A stretch of 63,162 nucleotides of DNA, counting the filler, from Globobulimina sp. (lineage: Eukaryota): NCBI GenBank assembly GCA_003354225.1. It is 31 parts of 31 records of this genome, joined end to end, with 100 filler letters (N's around TTAATTAATTAA, not from the genome) between each part and the next. Parts side by side here need not be neighbours in the genome. Positions count along the whole stretch, not along the records: positions 38,788 to 40,727 come from PIVH01010376.1; 30 more parts are not named here. One strand, 5' to 3'. Below the pieces are notes generated by a model. The model was not told where the DNA came from, did no database searches, and was given only the letters and a program-made list of their open reading frames with translations. Positions 13,163 to 54,306 of the stretch are shown in pieces. The first letter of the stretch is position 1. Every line of letters begins with the position of its first letter. The position numbers and the translations under genes were made by a program.

Positions 13163-14198
13163 TTATACAATTACACCAGCCGGGATCTCATTTGGTCCAT
13201 TCTGTGCTGGCCTCCTTGGAGGTATTGGTATTGATGCAATTGGTGGCATTGGTATTGGCGCAACCATTGGAGGTACAACTGCTGGTTCAACAACTTCAAT
13301 TGGTCGCGGTTCAACAACCTCAATTGGTGGAGGTTCCACAACTTCAATAGGTAGCGGTTCCACAACCTCAACCGGCGGATTTGGTGCTACTTCAGTCGGT
13401 GTATTTGGCGCCATTTCAGTCGGCGTAGTTGGTGCAATTACAACAGGAATCTCGGTATTTGGATAGTTCTGCGGCAACATCGGAATCTCAACCGGTATAA
13501 AATCAGGCAACACCGGAATTGGAGGCCAGGTAAGCGAGCCAGGCGTAGTGGTACTGGGCACCGCCGGCATCGACGGTATCACCAAGGGAGTGTACGTGGT
13601 GGTGGTCGTGGTGGTGGTAGCAAACGTAGGCGAAGGCGTACTTGGATCACACGGTACGCCCACACCGCCCACCTTCCGTTTAATCACACAGCCATCGCAG
13701 GCCCCTGCGGTGCAAAACACTCTTTGAATCTCCACATTGTTGCCGGTAATAAAGGTCGTGCCGTCACAAGCCTCCCTCTCCGAGCACACCACGTCAGCCA
13801 CAGACAGCAACACCGTGTCCCCGCCGCTCGTGGCCTGCGTGTTCACCAACGTCACCACCGCATCCTTGCAAGCCATCACGCCGCCACACTCAAAGCCTGC
13901 CACCCTCCGCACTAAATTGCCCGAACCGCCTCCAAAAATAAGATCCAATTCCAGCCCATAACAGGACTCGACCGCCATGCACATTAATAAGAAGTCGTTG
14001 GCTGGGTTGGTAATGGCGCGTTGTTGGTACGCACACGCCTCGAAATCCACGCATTCCATCGTCTGTACGTTGTTATAACACATATCGATGCCCGCGGCGT
14101 CAACACACGACGGCCCACACATACAATTATTCAGCTCCACTCCGCCAGTCACGGTGCTGCCGGCGTTGAAGTCGAATATGGCGCCGGTACACGCCTCG
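13163..14198 (-). CDS. Cys-rich repeat protein with Thr/Pro-rich and PPIEVVE-repeat tail, 5'-truncated; paralogue of 2391-3986
   Basis: NNCMCGPSC and ACDGTTFITG shared with DNCICGPSC and SCDGTTFITG of the contig-2 gene. Confidence 0.8.
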
Positions 14199-14751
14199 NN
14201 NNNNNNNNNNNNNNNNNNNNNNNNNNNNNNNNNNNNNNNNNNTTAATTAATTAANNNNNNNNNNNNNNNNNNNNNNNNNNNNNNNNNNNNNNNNNNNNTT
14301 AGCAATTCGTTCGGTTTTATTTTTAATGCGCCAATGGATAATGCCATGGCTACATTCGCCAAAGATTCAATATTTGCAAAGTCAATGCTCGCGGTTTTGT
14401 AGCCATTATTGGTGTTAGTATACATATTAACATTTATCGGTTTTTGTTACATGTTAGGTTCGATGAAATAGTGGCCCGGGTTTGTTACGTGCAATCAGTT
14501 ACCGTTTATTAATTATAACTGTCAGCTCTTAAGCTTGTGCGCACTGTGCAAGGATGTCTGAATGTGTCATATGTGATGCAAATAATATTAAATTGAATTG
14601 CAAATTGAACTTGTATAACACATCAAAATACAAAACAAAATCAAACACACATAATCGATACAAAACATATTATTGATTGCAGCAAATAAAAAAATAAAAG
14701 AGATAATAATAGTTTTGTTATATAATAATTAAATTCCATGCATATGTATAA

Positions 14752-38687: not shown

Positions 38688-39588
38688 NNNNNNNNNNNNN
38701 NNNNNNNNNNNNNNNNNNNNNNNNNNNNNNNTTAATTAATTAANNNNNNNNNNNNNNNNNNNNNNNNNNNNNNNNNNNNNNNNNNNNTATACAGGAGTAT
38801 AGGATTTCGACCTATCATGGGATGGGTGGGGAACCAATTTAGTATCTAACTATCCTGTGCATATTCATACTTTTTTTATTTTTTTTTTTTTTTTGTTTTA
38901 ATGGCCTCAATATAAGATATTAATAATTTCGCAGTTTTTAAATATTGATTGTAAATATCAATAATTTCAAATACTTTTTGTTATTTTTTGTCAATTAATT
39001 TATTAAAATAATCTGTTTTTTCATATTTTATGGATAAATCTAATGCTAACTTATAATAATTATATTATACACAATTATTTATAGCTGTTACTATATTACC
39101 GTACTAAAAATAAATCAGTACTAAATTAATAGCCACTGTTAAACACAAAAATAATTCGCAGCTATGTATTGGATGCGGTTAATCGTAATACATTCTTAAA
39201 AACATTCGGCCAGCTTCGAATAATAAATAATTCAACTACCACAATATGATGGATGTAATATTGTATTCTCATCAGAATTTATTCAGAAACAGCTTTGGCA
39301 TAAACCATATTGATACCCTTCATTTTCTCCACATAACCAAAATTTACTTGACACTCTTCGTTATTCATTGACTGTCATTCCTTGGTTTCAACATATTTAT
39401 CTTCCTTGGAAATAATTTATAATGCACCGGATAAAGCCATTGGCGATCAAAATCTCATTGTTTAACCTCAAAAATAGTTTGTAGGCGATTTGGATATCGA
39501 ATAACGTCCACACGAACAGATTCGATTCAATTAGTTTCTATTTGACCATAGTTACTTACAGAATCAACTAAAAGCAAAAATTCTTTAT

Positions 39589-40727
39589 ATGGGCTGCACT
39601 GATTCAGAAATGGCAGAACCAGACAAAAAAGAAGAAAAAGACGAGTATAAAATTACTGAGAATGAACAAAATAATTTATTGCAAGATTTTTTTTCAAAAG
39701 AAGCAGTAACAATTGTCGTTACAGACATTGGTTTAGGTGGAATGTCTGTATTTGATTATATTGAAAATAGCCTATCAGTGAAATCTCAAAACGCTGAGTC
39801 ATTACCATTTAAAAAGGTGAATTTAGTGTATTGGAATAGTCAGGTCGCGGATAGGTACACTTTACATCCTATACAAGAACAAATTGCTAAATTCGATAAG
39901 CAGCTAACTATGATGCAGAATGACCATCAGCCAGATATTATTTTAATTGCTTGTAACACCTTATCTGTGATTTATAACAAAACACCATTTTATTCCCAAA
40001 CAAAAATCCCAATTTTATCCATTGTTGATTTTGGTGTAAAATTATTTAATGATAAATTATTAACCGATAAAAAAAATAATTTAAATTCAATTATGGTGAT
40101 ATATGGCACTGTGACCACTGCAAAAGTCGGGCAACATAAAAAAATTATGAAAATGGATGAGAATATGAGTAAAAGTGGTGTTGATATGGATAAATATATT
40201 GTATTGCAAGGATGTAAAGGCGGTGCTACTGCTATTCAGGTAATATATACATATATTTTCTTATTTGTTTTAATTTATAATTCATTGCCAAGGGCAAAGG
40301 AGCGGACAGTGATGAGGTAAAAGCGTTAATTGATGGATATGTAAAAGATTCATATGAGCAAATTAAAGGTAATAAATTAGAATTAAAGGTGGATACAAAA
40401 GTATATGCGGGTTTATGTTGTACTCATTATGGGTATTCATATCCATTTTGGTTGGAATCATTAATAAGATATAAAAAAGAATATATTGATGATGACGATA
40501 ATAAGGAGATGAAGGATGAAATGCATGGCATTGAAATTATTAATCCAAATAATTCAATGGGTGCTTTTATTTCTGATAATAAGGTGTTTAAAATCAATGA
40601 ATTTAAGACGAAAATTGTAATGGATTTATCCGTGTTTTCGCCAAATTGTTTATTAGAAGAAATTGAAAGAGAATCAATTTCAAAATTATTACAGCAAAAT
40701 TCAGCAAATGTTTTATTAAAATGTGAA
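39589..40727 (+). CDS. Asp/Glu racemase family (MurI-like) protein, 2 exons, 3'-truncated
   Basis: VTDIGLGGMSV, ILIACNTLS, IYGTVTT, GLCCTHYGY; GT-AG intron 40240-40292 restores the frame; MGC N-terminus. Confidence 0.85.
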
Positions 40728-52785: not shown

Positions 52786-53067
52786 ACAAAAATTTCTAGA
52801 AAATTCCACTCTTTATAGGGCTGATGAAATTCATGAAAAAAGTAAAGTACTGGTAATGGCAACTTTCCATATGAATTGTGCTATATGTTGTTACATAATG
52901 GAATTTTGTGTCTGCAGTGATGAGTTTATTAACTACCATCATTCATTTTGATATTTGCAAACCATTTNNNNNNNNNNNNNNNNNNNNNNNNNNNNNNNNN
53001 NNNNNNNNNNNTTAATTAATTAANNNNNNNNNNNNNNNNNNNNNNNNNNNNNNNNNNNNNNNNNNNN

Positions 53068-54306
53068 ATCAGCATCAATGTGCCGTTCCTGACCGGCGAC
53101 AAATACATTTTGCTGGACATTGGCGGCGGAACTTGCGACATCGCGGCACATGAAATAATGGGAGAATTTGCCATCGCCGAAGTGTTGCATCCGTCTGGCG
53201 GACCGTGGGGAGCGTCCAACATCGACGCAGAGTTCGAGCTGATGTTGGACGACATTTTCAGCAAAGAGTGGATGAACGAATTCAAACAAGTCTCTCCCAA
53301 CATGTACCAGCAATTATTGTATAACTTCATCAGTTTCAGCAAAATGTCCTTTTACACGAATAATAATGTCAGTTACCACGACGTGACATTGCCTTCCAAC
53401 TTTGGAGACTTTTTGATTGACAAATTGGAGGAAATGCAGTCGCCGGACTTGGACGAGGATGATGACGACGACTGGGATGCCGACGAGTTGTTGGATGAGT
53501 ATTTGCGGAAAAGGTGTTTGGAGCTGTACAAGAATGAGAAGCTGATAACGATGAACGAGCTGTCTTCGTCGGCGTATGTGCTGTCGCTACACTTTAATTT
53601 ATGGAAGAAGCTGTTCAACATCGTGGTGGATCCCATCGTGCAGCACATTGAGAAGATATTGGAGGATAAGAATATGCGGCAATGCAAGTACATATTCCTT
53701 GTGGGCGGCTTTGCCAATGCCAAATATTTGCAGGAGAGGATCAAGTATGAGTTTGGTGACCGAATATCCATTGTCATCCCGCAGTTGCCTCAGTTGTGTG
53801 TGGTGGATGGCGCTGCGCGGTATGGCTTGCGGCCCAATTTCATGAAAGTGAGGAGATTGGCCAAATCGTATGGGATTCAGACGAATAAATCACTCAATTC
53901 GGTCAAGGACTATATACATTTGTTTCCACTCAAATATATTGAGAATAATACCTATTTTGATGCAGAGTTGAAACAGAAATATGTGCAGCAATGTTTTTGT
54001 GTGTTTGCGGTGAAGAATAAAGCGATTAATATCAATGACCAGGCCATTCGCAAAAGTGTTTATAAGATGACCGCAGACCAAAAGAAAATGATGATTGAGA
54101 TCTTTTTGAGTCAGAAAGTAAAACCGATGACGACCAGCGCCGAAGACGGCTGCAAGAAAATTGGCAAATTGGTTATCGAGTTGCCCAACACCGAGGAATA
54201 CAAAGTTTGGGTCGAATTTCAATATTCGGACACTATGCTGACTGTTTATGCCTATCCAAACAACAGAAGAGACCTTAAAATTCAGTCTGTCATTCAGTAT
54301 CATTAA
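53068..54306 (+). CDS. HSPA12-type Hsp70, C-terminal part
   Basis: GDKYILLDIGGGTCDI, SGGPWGASNID, IFLVGGFANAKYLQ, VVDGAARYG. Confidence 0.88.
   Translation: MSINVPFLTGDKYILLDIGGGTCDIAAHEIMGEFAIAEVLHPSGGPWGASNIDAEFELMLDDIFSKEWMNEFKQVSPNMYQQLLYNFISFSKMSFYTNNNVSYHDVTLPSNFGDFLIDKLEEMQSPDLDEDDDDDWDADELLDEYLRKRCLELYKNEKLITMNELSSSAYVLSLHFNLWKKLFNIVVDPIVQHIEKILEDKNMRQCKYIFLVGGFANAKYLQERIKYEFGDRISIVIPQLPQLCVVDGAARYGLRPNFMKVRRLAKSYGIQTNKSLNSVKDYIHLFPLKYIENNTYFDAELKQKYVQQCFCVFAVKNKAININDQAIRKSVYKMTADQKKMMIEIFLSQKVKPMTTSAEDGCKKIGKLVIELPNTEEYKVWVEFQYSDTMLTVYAYPNNRRDLKIQSVIQYH

What the first reader, a model, noticed from the sequence alone, without database searches (positions are those of the whole stretch)
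39589..40727. Intron-containing, putatively lipid-anchored bacterial-type glutamate/aspartate racemase in a eukaryote
Seen: the MurI-family motif set in order (TDIGLGG for DSGxGG, IACNT, GTxTT, CCTHY) with both catalytic cysteines; a 53-nt GT-AG intron (40240-40292) that must be removed to reach the second Cys; host-like AT content; and an MGC N-terminus. Known: cofactor-independent Glu/Asp racemases supply D-amino acids for bacterial peptidoglycan and are rare in eukaryotes; MGC is a typical myristoylation plus palmitoylation signal. Inference: a domesticated horizontal acquisition, perhaps recycling D-Glu from ingested bacteria or making D-amino acids at a membrane. The Ser-to-Ile change in the DSG motif may alter substrate specificity.
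Basis: partly seen in the sequence, partly recalled or inferred. Interest (0 to 1): 0.75.

Follow-up and report, generated by a model that had tools for sequence, protein, structure and literature searches.

The report
Bacterial-type racemase in a foraminifer
A single-celled marine eukaryote has a real, spliced gene for an enzyme of bacterial origin that probably flips mirror-image amino acids; it comes from an unstudied branch of the family and has a changed binding pocket, but the proposed membrane anchor is not well conserved.

Summary
The gene is real and eukaryotic. The 53-nt intron (40240-40292) is skipped in contigs of 3 of 4 runs laid. The nearest named relative is a Bolivina argentea (foraminifer) protein, 75.5% identical and colinear across the junction. 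Both catalytic cysteines and the MurI fold are present. The gene runs off its 1.94-kb contig without a stop.

It is not MurI proper: it scores 26-28 bits against a cut-off of 147. It belongs to an accessory bacterial subfamily for which I found no characterised member; 5 of 5 host genomes checked also carry canonical MurI, and neighbours point to gamma-glutamyl metabolism. The foraminiferal proteins form one clade with other probable marine protist proteins. All placed members lose the pocket serine, so that change is clade-wide. The donor is unresolved; the Desulfobacteraceae-type copy in the same assembly is rejected as sister.

The lipid anchor is doubtful: MGC is absent from both Bolivina proteins and two related contigs, though similar starts recur in two other clade members. 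Best reading: cofactor- and oxygen-free salvage of prey-derived D-amino acids, with specificity probably shifted from strict glutamate. Racemase transfer into eukaryotes is known, so this is a new variant.

The parts
38788..40727 (.). Whole contig holding the gene (G000:C10376, 1940 bp, GC 0.286), between two linker blocks; no other ORF of 100 aa or more except a 114-aa frame on the opposite strand of exon 2
39589..40239 (+). Exon 1, 217 codons
39589..39606 (+). MGCxxS start: myristoylation plus palmitoylation-like motif (consensus recalled); variably present in relatives
39610..39612 (+). Second in-frame ATG (Met8); the first possible start in the X10 contig, which has an in-frame stop and no ATG in the 30 letters shown upstream of 39604
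   Evidence: table 7, read in frame by me
39721..39741 (+). TDIGLGG motif; Asp46 kept, Ile47 where MurI and the bacterial subfamily have Ser
39856..39861 (+). Tyr90-Thr91, aligned to the Tyr-Gly of the MurI PYG loop
   Evidence: alignment with L171-L175
39952..39954 (+). Cys122, first catalytic cysteine (ACNT)
40240..40292 (+). 53-nt GT-AG spliceosomal intron, phase 0
   Evidence: table 5 (joint in X7, X9, X10)
40293..40727 (+). Exon 2, 145 codons, cut by the contig end, no stop codon
   Evidence: X7 contig goes on about 700 letters past the end (table 8)
40419..40421 (+). Cys260, second catalytic cysteine (CTHY)

Best explanation
This is a spliced nuclear gene of a foraminifer for a cofactor-free, two-cysteine racemase of MurI fold. 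SHOWN: gene structure, removal of the intron in related contigs, a foraminiferal orthologue, both cysteines, the fold (on the paralogue P0003), descent from an accessory bacterial subfamily, and membership of one mainly protist clade that lacks the pocket serine. FROM KNOWN CHEMISTRY: Cys122 and Cys260 act as a thiolate/thiol pair that takes the alpha-proton from one face and returns it to the other, with no PLP and no oxygen. INFERRED: the protein is cytosolic, having no signal peptide unlike about half of its bacterial relatives. It salvages D-amino acids released from digested bacteria (peptidoglycan, gamma-D-glutamyl polymers) by turning them into usable L-forms, which also works under anoxia where flavin D-amino-acid oxidases cannot. 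The Ser-to-Ile/Val and PYG-loop changes probably loosen or shift specificity away from strict glutamate. The MGC start is an optional, lineage-specific addition. My odds: host gene 0.98; bacterial-derived 0.85; active racemase or epimerase 0.8; glutamate still the main substrate 0.4; salvage role 0.5; window protein acylated in vivo 0.35.
For: Splicing: joint skipping 53 nt, GT..AG, in 3 of 4 runs, 2 studies. Orthologue: P0096 271 of 359 identical, P0003 196 of 345; both Bolivina argentea in EukProt. Fold: model of P0003 pLDDT 88.8, pTM 0.89; the 31 best listed Foldseek rows are all glutamate racemases (E 1e-11 to 3e-8), aspartate racemases follow at 2e-6. Tree: window plus Bolivina 100/100; eukaryote-like clade 92/100 with the long branch P0430, SH-aLRT 100 for 18 rows without it; subfamily versus canonical MurI 100/100. 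Ser in 352 of 388 motif-bearing proteins; the 20 non-Ser rows placed all fall in that clade. Crude signal-peptide test: 183 of 352 Ser-type against 1 of 36 non-Ser. Bacterial context in 160 loci: CapA-like 32, D-Ala-D-Ala-ligase-like 24, N-formylglutamate amidohydrolase 15 and 12 (two clusters), succinylglutamate desuccinylase-like 11, gamma-glutamyltranspeptidase 9, alanine racemase 7. Two-cysteine mechanism: PMC8142540 passages. D-amino-acid use as a proposed role for transferred racemases in fungi: PMC5169069 passages.
Against: No activity, substrate or localisation data. My searches found no characterised member of the subfamily, and the solved structures hit are all canonical MurI. The base of the subfamily is unresolved, so nesting inside bacteria is not shown and no donor can be named. 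The neighbour counts include redundant loci and rest on one Pfam-scanned representative per cluster. CapA plus an ATP-grasp ligase suggests D-Glu synthesis, not salvage, in the bacterial relatives. The other clade members are mostly unnamed metagenomic proteins, and their diet is unknown. 'RNA' is only a guess for X7, X9, X10. A transferred Asp/Glu racemase in Candida glabrata showed no obvious role (PMC5169069). The structure was predicted for the paralogue P0003, not the window protein.
Confidence: 0.5

Rival explanations
1. It is still a strict glutamate racemase: Thr91 or backbone amides replace the lost serine contact, and it recycles only D-Glu.
For: Best structural and profile matches are glutamate racemases; Asp46, Tyr90, ACNT, GTxTT and CTH are kept; bacterial relatives sit among glutamate and gamma-glutamyl genes.
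Against: Ser is present in all 5 canonical MurI and 352 of 388 motif-bearing proteins but lost clade-wide here; PMC12744344 lists Ser11, Tyr42 and Gly43 among residues bonding docked glutamate; TIGR00067 score is 26-28 against 146.65.
Confidence: 0.25
2. It is a membrane-tethered enzyme: myristoylated and palmitoylated, acting at the food-vacuole or plasma membrane.
For: MGCxxS is 1 of 2759 ATG contexts; the X9 contig aligns from 39588 and probably keeps it; P0208 cluster starts MGCGAS and P0294 starts MGNC.
Against: Absent from P0003 and P0096 as predicted. The X10 contig has an in-frame stop and no ATG before Met8, and the 30 letters shown before Met8 in X7 hold no ATG. Most non-Ser proteins lack it, though many N-termini are unreliable gene calls.
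Confidence: 0.3
3. It is biosynthetic: it makes a D-amino acid for a host polymer or peptide, as the bacterial relatives may do beside CapA and an ATP-grasp ligase.
For: CapA-like gene adjacent in 32 of 160 bacterial loci, ligase in 24; G000 has a CapA-like ORF on a host-like contig, L181, GC 0.33.
Against: No link between the two host genes (different contigs); no host ligase partner was sought; PF09587 rings in 7 of 14 control genomes, so it is common.
Confidence: 0.12
4. It is a non-catalytic or repurposed binding or regulatory domain.
For: Clade members P0213 and P0215 have changed ACNT to ACGS and CTH to CSH; P0211 and P0301 are joined to a phosphagen-kinase domain.
Against: The window protein and both Bolivina proteins keep both cysteines and their flanking residues across 57-76% identity.
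Confidence: 0.1
5. It is a bacterial contaminant, or a recent transfer from the associated Desulfobacteraceae.
For: The contig has no linked host gene; the assembly holds a second, uninterrupted copy, L002, that groups with Desulfobacula 100/100.
Against: Spliced intron; Bolivina orthologue; the AU test rejects foraminifera plus the L002 group as one clade, p=0.0003, although I chose that group after seeing the tree and used LG+G4; L002 GC3 is 0.40 against 0.24.
Confidence: 0.01

Closest known systems
Glutamate racemase MurI/RacE (TIGR00067; PDB 1B73, 1ZUW, 2JFX)
   Same: Two-domain fold, D-x-G-x-GG, ACNT, GT and CTH motifs in order, two cysteines.
   Different: 13-20% identity in the structural matches; far below the cut-off; Ser replaced by Ile; GDTxRxPYG loop replaced; Gln where MurI has Glu after the second-domain helix; about 100 residues longer; intron; eukaryotic host.
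Unnamed bacterial MurI-like subfamily (TDSGLGG / CCTH; Ignavibacteriota, Bacteroidota, Zixiibacteriota, Desulfobacterales, Acidobacteriota and others)
   Same: Same subfamily, 100/100 against canonical MurI; 38-43% identity for the two proteins measured; shared PDIILIACNTLS and LCCTH blocks.
   Different: Bacterial members keep Ser, have a loop 3 residues longer, often carry a signal-peptide-like start, and occur beside canonical MurI (5 of 5 genomes). Database labels 'glutamate racemase' are automatic.
Horizontally acquired PF01177 racemases of eukaryotes (PMC5169069; e.g. Candida glabrata CAGL0D01210g; fungal OpaE, PMC12661438)
   Same: Bacterial-derived cofactor-free racemase in a eukaryote, patchy distribution, function unclear or re-specialised.
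   Different: Those cases are mostly fungal (15 of 17 events); the two named examples are aspartate-racemase-like and allantoin/hydantoin-type. That paper says Rhizaria were too poorly sampled to detect events.
Aspartate and broad-specificity racemases AspR, YgeA, RacX (TIGR00035)
   Same: Same superfamily; shows that pocket changes can broaden specificity (PMC12838360 passages).
   Different: Score 21-30 against a cut-off of 93.1; weaker fold match. The three other PF01177 genes of G000 are of this AspR-like side (two scanned), not this gene.

Membership tests
MurI glutamate racemase (TIGR00067) | Two catalytic cysteines in ACNT and CTH | tested here: met
   Cys122 and Cys260 align with the cysteines of 1B73 and L171-L175
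MurI glutamate racemase (TIGR00067) | MurI fold | tested here: met
   Model of paralogue P0003; Foldseek TM by target 0.63-0.77 to MurI structures
MurI glutamate racemase (TIGR00067) | Score at or over the curated cut-off 146.65 | tested here: not met
   27.9 for exon 1; 26.1 and 26.5 for full-length P0096 and P0003; controls L171 and L175 score 255 and 251
MurI glutamate racemase (TIGR00067) | D-S-G-x-G-G with Ser | tested here: not met
   Ile47
MurI glutamate racemase (TIGR00067) | GD(T/V)xRxPYG substrate loop | tested here: not met
   Only the Tyr is kept; Gly is Thr
MurI glutamate racemase (TIGR00067) | Racemises glutamate | not testable with these tools
   Needs an assay
Pfam PF01177 Asp_Glu_race | Gathering score 31 | tested here: inconclusive
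   Exons scanned apart: 13.8 bits for exon 1, none for exon 2. No precomputed hit for P0003 or P0096. Many subfamily members carry the label, and the fold places it in the superfamily.
Aspartate or broad-specificity racemase (TIGR00035) | Score at or over 93.1 | tested here: not met
   21.3 for exon 1; 29.8 for P0096
Eukaryotic nuclear gene | Spliceosomal intron that is removed | tested here: met
   Joint in 3 of 4 runs; contigs only, RNA status a guess
Eukaryotic nuclear gene | Orthologue in a named eukaryote | tested here: met
   Bolivina argentea P0096, 99/97 sister
Eukaryotic nuclear gene | Physical link to host genes | tested here: inconclusive
   Contig holds no other recognisable gene
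Bacteria-to-eukaryote transfer | Eukaryotic clade nested inside bacteria with a supported donor | tested here: inconclusive
   Inside the subfamily (100/100), but the base is an open fork
Bacteria-to-eukaryote transfer | Patchy eukaryotic distribution | tested here: met
   Named eukaryotic sources seen: 2 EukProt proteins of one species and 1 MMETSP transcript; only listed hits and 30 clusters were examined
Dually acylated (N-myristoyl, S-palmitoyl) proteins | Gly2, Cys3, Ser/Thr6 (recalled consensus) | tested here: met
   MGCTDS
Dually acylated (N-myristoyl, S-palmitoyl) proteins | Motif conserved in orthologues | tested here: not met
   Absent in P0096, P0003, X10 and the shown letters of X7; probably kept in X9
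Dually acylated (N-myristoyl, S-palmitoyl) proteins | Met1 is the start used and the protein is acylated | not testable with these tools
   Contigs cannot show RNA starts
Spliced-leader trans-splicing (5' leader on related contigs) | One fixed leader end joined at AG acceptors; leader is not a transposon end | tested here: not met
   Three different junctions, none behind an AG in the window; the genomic copies are the end of a repeat, present as inverted arms in L083

The most novel reading that the evidence does not exclude
This is one member of an unrecognised family of cofactor-free racemases in marine protists with a re-tuned, non-glutamate pocket, repeatedly given membrane anchors or phosphagen-kinase fusions. 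In foraminifera it would work beside three more PF01177 genes as an oxygen-independent D-amino-acid system. Protist grazers would then be an uncounted sink or source of D-amino acids in low-oxygen sediments, which bears on D/L ratios used as bacterial markers and as clocks.
Probability: 0.2. Interest if true: 0.75.

Novelty: new variant of a known kind. Interest (0 to 1): 0.5.

Why it matters
It gives an assayable handle on how bacteria-eating protists deal with D-amino acids without oxygen. It also points to a whole MurI-like subfamily with no characterised member in my searches, which databases label as glutamate racemase. The clade-wide loss of the pocket serine is a natural experiment on specificity. 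The general phenomenon, racemase transfer into eukaryotes, is already described, which caps the surprise.

Tried and rejected
1. Spliced leader. A shared 5' leader on X7, X9 and X10 contigs has 15 matches on 15 contigs of G000 against 1 for the control. It is the terminal inverted repeat of an element of about 290 bp (both arms in L083), the three junctions differ, and the longer junction pattern has 0 matches in G000. Rejected as trans-splicing. A transposon beside the start in sister lineages and template switching both remain open.
2. Donor among associated Desulfobacteraceae: rejected.
3. Viral carrier: 0 of 67 pattern matches in viral contigs encode a relative.
The Atlas gave only bacterial clusters for P0096 and no usable taxon for the P0301 kinase part.
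5. No RNA holder is listed on record. X4 has no cover at 39525-39603 and its contig begins at 39604 next to adapter-like letters. Neither is used as evidence.
6. No Rfam match on the contig at E 0.1.
7. No earlier scan notes by sequence or words.
8. A source stating that Ser11 binds the gamma-carboxylate was not found; that role is recalled.
9. The careful 118-row mixture tree did not finish; its quick tree and a careful 62-row LG+G4 tree are used.
10. An upstream coding exon: the frame is open 18 codons before Met1 with an AG in phase, but no contig joint supports it.

Full report
Setting. The window is not one chromosome stretch: it is 31 contigs of about 1.94 kb, sorted by size and joined by N-linker blocks. 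The finding fills the right half of one contig, 38788-40727 (G000:C10376). No gene neighbourhood can be read, so host origin must rest on the intron and on relatives.

Observation. The frame starts at 39589. Exon 1 has 217 codons, the intron is 40240-40292, and exon 2 has 145 codons and reaches the contig end without a stop. Unspliced, translation stops at 40320, before Cys260. Eleven GT-AG pairs could keep a frame open, so the intron needed outside support. Contigs of runs X7, X9 and X10 join across exactly these 53 letters with GT..AG ends, and X4 has loose ends of the joined form. These are contigs, 'RNA' is the tool's guess, and the table of joined forms in DNA runs was not given. The Bolivina protein P0096 aligns without a gap across the junction.

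Relatives. The best hits are two EukProt proteins of the foraminifer Bolivina argentea: P0096 (271 of 359 identical) and P0003 (196 of 345). I therefore treat the host as a foraminifer by inference. Next comes a set of proteins without signal peptides, about 42% identical for the two measured. They are probably eukaryotic: one cluster holds an MMETSP transcript (P0292); P0294 has a 33-residue insertion from Val to Gln, as an intron read through would give; and several lose similarity abruptly, as at an intron. The domain of P0213, P0214, P0215, P0218, P0321 and P0430 is not shown. Below these lies a bacterial subfamily of about 300-350 residues: 80 GTDB loci kept of 120 confirmed, from Ignavibacteriota, Bacteroidota, Zixiibacteriota, Desulfobacterales, Acidobacteriota and others. 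The full-library profile search gave 250 clusters at E 1e-30, 150 of them listed.

Family. Exon 1 scores 27.9 and full-length P0096 26.1 bits on TIGR00067 (cut-off 146.65). Bacterial subfamily members score 53-61, and canonical controls 251-255. An AlphaFold model of P0003 (pLDDT 88.8) matches glutamate racemase structures first. So it works like MurI in fold and catalytic pair but is not a MurI member. All 5 of 5 bacterial genomes checked hold a separate canonical MurI, so the subfamily is accessory. Among 160 bacterial loci (redundancy not removed; two ORFs each side), the recurring neighbours are CapA-like (32), D-Ala-D-Ala-ligase-like (24), N-formylglutamate amidohydrolase (15 and 12), succinylglutamate desuccinylase-like (11), a TRAP transporter subunit (10), gamma-glutamyltranspeptidase (9) and alanine racemase (7). 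Two-component genes (24 and 19), secretion-tail proteins (16) and SusC/D-type genes (11, 10) also recur. This points to D-glutamate or gamma-glutamyl chemistry in the bacterial relatives (inference).

Origin. In a careful tree of 62 rows (LG+G4) the window protein is sister to P0096 (99/97), the three foraminiferal proteins are a clade (100/100), and the eukaryote-like set is one clade (92/100 with the long branch P0430). The quick mixture tree of 118 rows gives SH-aLRT 100 for 18 such rows. Rows were chosen by me; five of the 80 GTDB loci were left out as near-copies or fragments, and one search used 38 of the 80. The base of the subfamily is an open fork, so no donor is named. The second copy in G000 (L002, 629 bp, uninterrupted, GC 0.41) groups with Desulfobacula (100/100). 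Desulfobacteraceae are known associates of foraminifera (PMC9231491, passages), but the AU test rejects them as sister to the foraminiferal gene (p=0.0003, group chosen after the tree). No viral copy was found. One transfer into a marine protist followed by loss or further transfer fits best; ancient vertical descent is not excluded.

Pocket. Of 388 fetched proteins with the motif (of 434 held, redundant), 352 have Ser and 36 do not (Val 25, Ile 5, Leu 3, Asp 2, Ala 1). The 20 non-Ser rows placed in trees all fall in the eukaryote-like clade; P0429 (Ala) was not placed. The loop matching MurI's PYG keeps Tyr but has Thr for Gly. PMC12744344 (passages) lists Ser11, Tyr42 and Gly43 among residues bonding docked glutamate. 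That they hold the side-chain carboxylate is recalled, not read. A shift in specificity is therefore likely but untested.

Anchor. MGCxx[S/T] is 1 of 2759 ATG contexts in the window, and two other clusters in the clade start MGCGAS and MGNC; one Ser-type protein also starts MGC (P0266). Against: neither Bolivina protein has it as predicted; the X10 contig has an in-frame stop and no ATG before Met8; the shown letters of X7 lack it; X9 probably keeps it, with 9 of its 10 differences listed downstream. In those three runs the letters before the gene are the end of a small inverted-repeat element (15 matches in G000, control 1). I first read this as a spliced leader and rejected it.

Mechanism. 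The two cysteines form a thiolate/thiol pair (PMC8142540, passages). The best functional guess is cytosolic salvage of prey-derived D-amino acids without cofactor or oxygen (0.5). That foraminifera eat bacteria and that D-amino-acid oxidases need oxygen is my own knowledge. G000 holds three more PF01177 matches and a CapA-like ORF on AT-rich, host-like contigs; I did not check their splicing or ancestry.

Literature. PMC5169069 (passages, 12 of 17 places): more than 20 eukaryotic PF01177 lineages, 17 transfer events, 15 into fungi, Rhizaria undersampled. PMC12661438 (passages): 2348 fungal entries; OpaE the only well-characterised fungal member. PMC12838360, PMC11602996 and PMC9169614: passages only. 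PMC6053224 and PMC8153729: search listing only. A search for foraminifera with racemase gave 4 papers, none on a foraminiferal enzyme by title and abstract start; searches showed no description of this subfamily in their listings. The library lacks most subscription papers. Supplements of PMC8153729 could not be read, and only 1 short file of PMC11736642 was searched, with 0 hits; annotation tables there may list the gene.

Verdict. It is a new variant of a known kind: a real, spliced, bacterial-derived racemase from an apparently unstudied subfamily, shared among some marine protists, with a changed pocket and an optional anchor. Interest 0.5.

Noticed in passing
window 1-63162: The window is 31 size-sorted contigs of 1939-1943 bp joined by N-run linkers with a 12-letter core; any neighbourhood or ORF across a linker is an artefact.
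   Followed up: yes
L083:780-1069; also L084-L090 and 7 more places in G000: A small inverted-repeat (MITE-like) element family, about 290 bp in L083, sharp end beginning CATAG, no clear target duplication seen. Its end stands just before this gene in contigs of X7, X9 and X10, at three different junctions, two of which lack the MGC start.
   Followed up: partly
L002 (G000:C40988:1-629): Uninterrupted copy of the same racemase subfamily that groups with Desulfobacula: bacterial DNA inside this eukaryotic assembly.
   Followed up: yes
L184:317-952, L185, L186:318-1154: Three more PF01177 genes on AT-rich host-like contigs, AspR/YgeA/CuyB-like; L184 has Ser in place of the first catalytic Cys (ASNT), and L185 and L186 look like paralogues.
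   Followed up: partly
L181 (G000:C219:2523-3497): CapA-like (PF09587) ORF, GC3 0.26, among eukaryote-looking ORFs; L182 is a second, bacterial-looking fragment.
   Followed up: partly
proteins P0211 and P0301: Two members of the eukaryote-like clade, on different branches, are joined to a phosphagen-kinase (PF00217) domain.
   Followed up: partly
proteins P0213 and P0215: A sub-branch with Asp at the serine site and ACGS / CSH in place of ACNT / CTH, on 13-15 kb contigs; domain of life unknown; possibly another substrate or inactive.
   Followed up: no
L021, L124, L143, L146 and others: A recurring bacterial gene set: CapA-like, this racemase, D-Ala-D-Ala-ligase-like, N-formylglutamate amidohydrolase, sometimes alanine racemase; seen in Desulfobacterales among others; may make an unknown D-Glu-containing polymer or peptide.
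   Followed up: partly
window 39234-39524: Upstream stretch is repeated: 80% match to L180 and diverged copies with a 34-letter insertion in X4 and X9 contigs.
   Followed up: partly
protein P0003: Bolivina has a second, more diverged paralogue; no host copy of it was found in G000, which may be incomplete.
   Followed up: partly
window 13163-14242, 53020-54306: Two long ORFs have GC3 of 0.54 and 0.61, well above the rest (median 0.30); the second looks Hsp70-like by eye.
   Followed up: no
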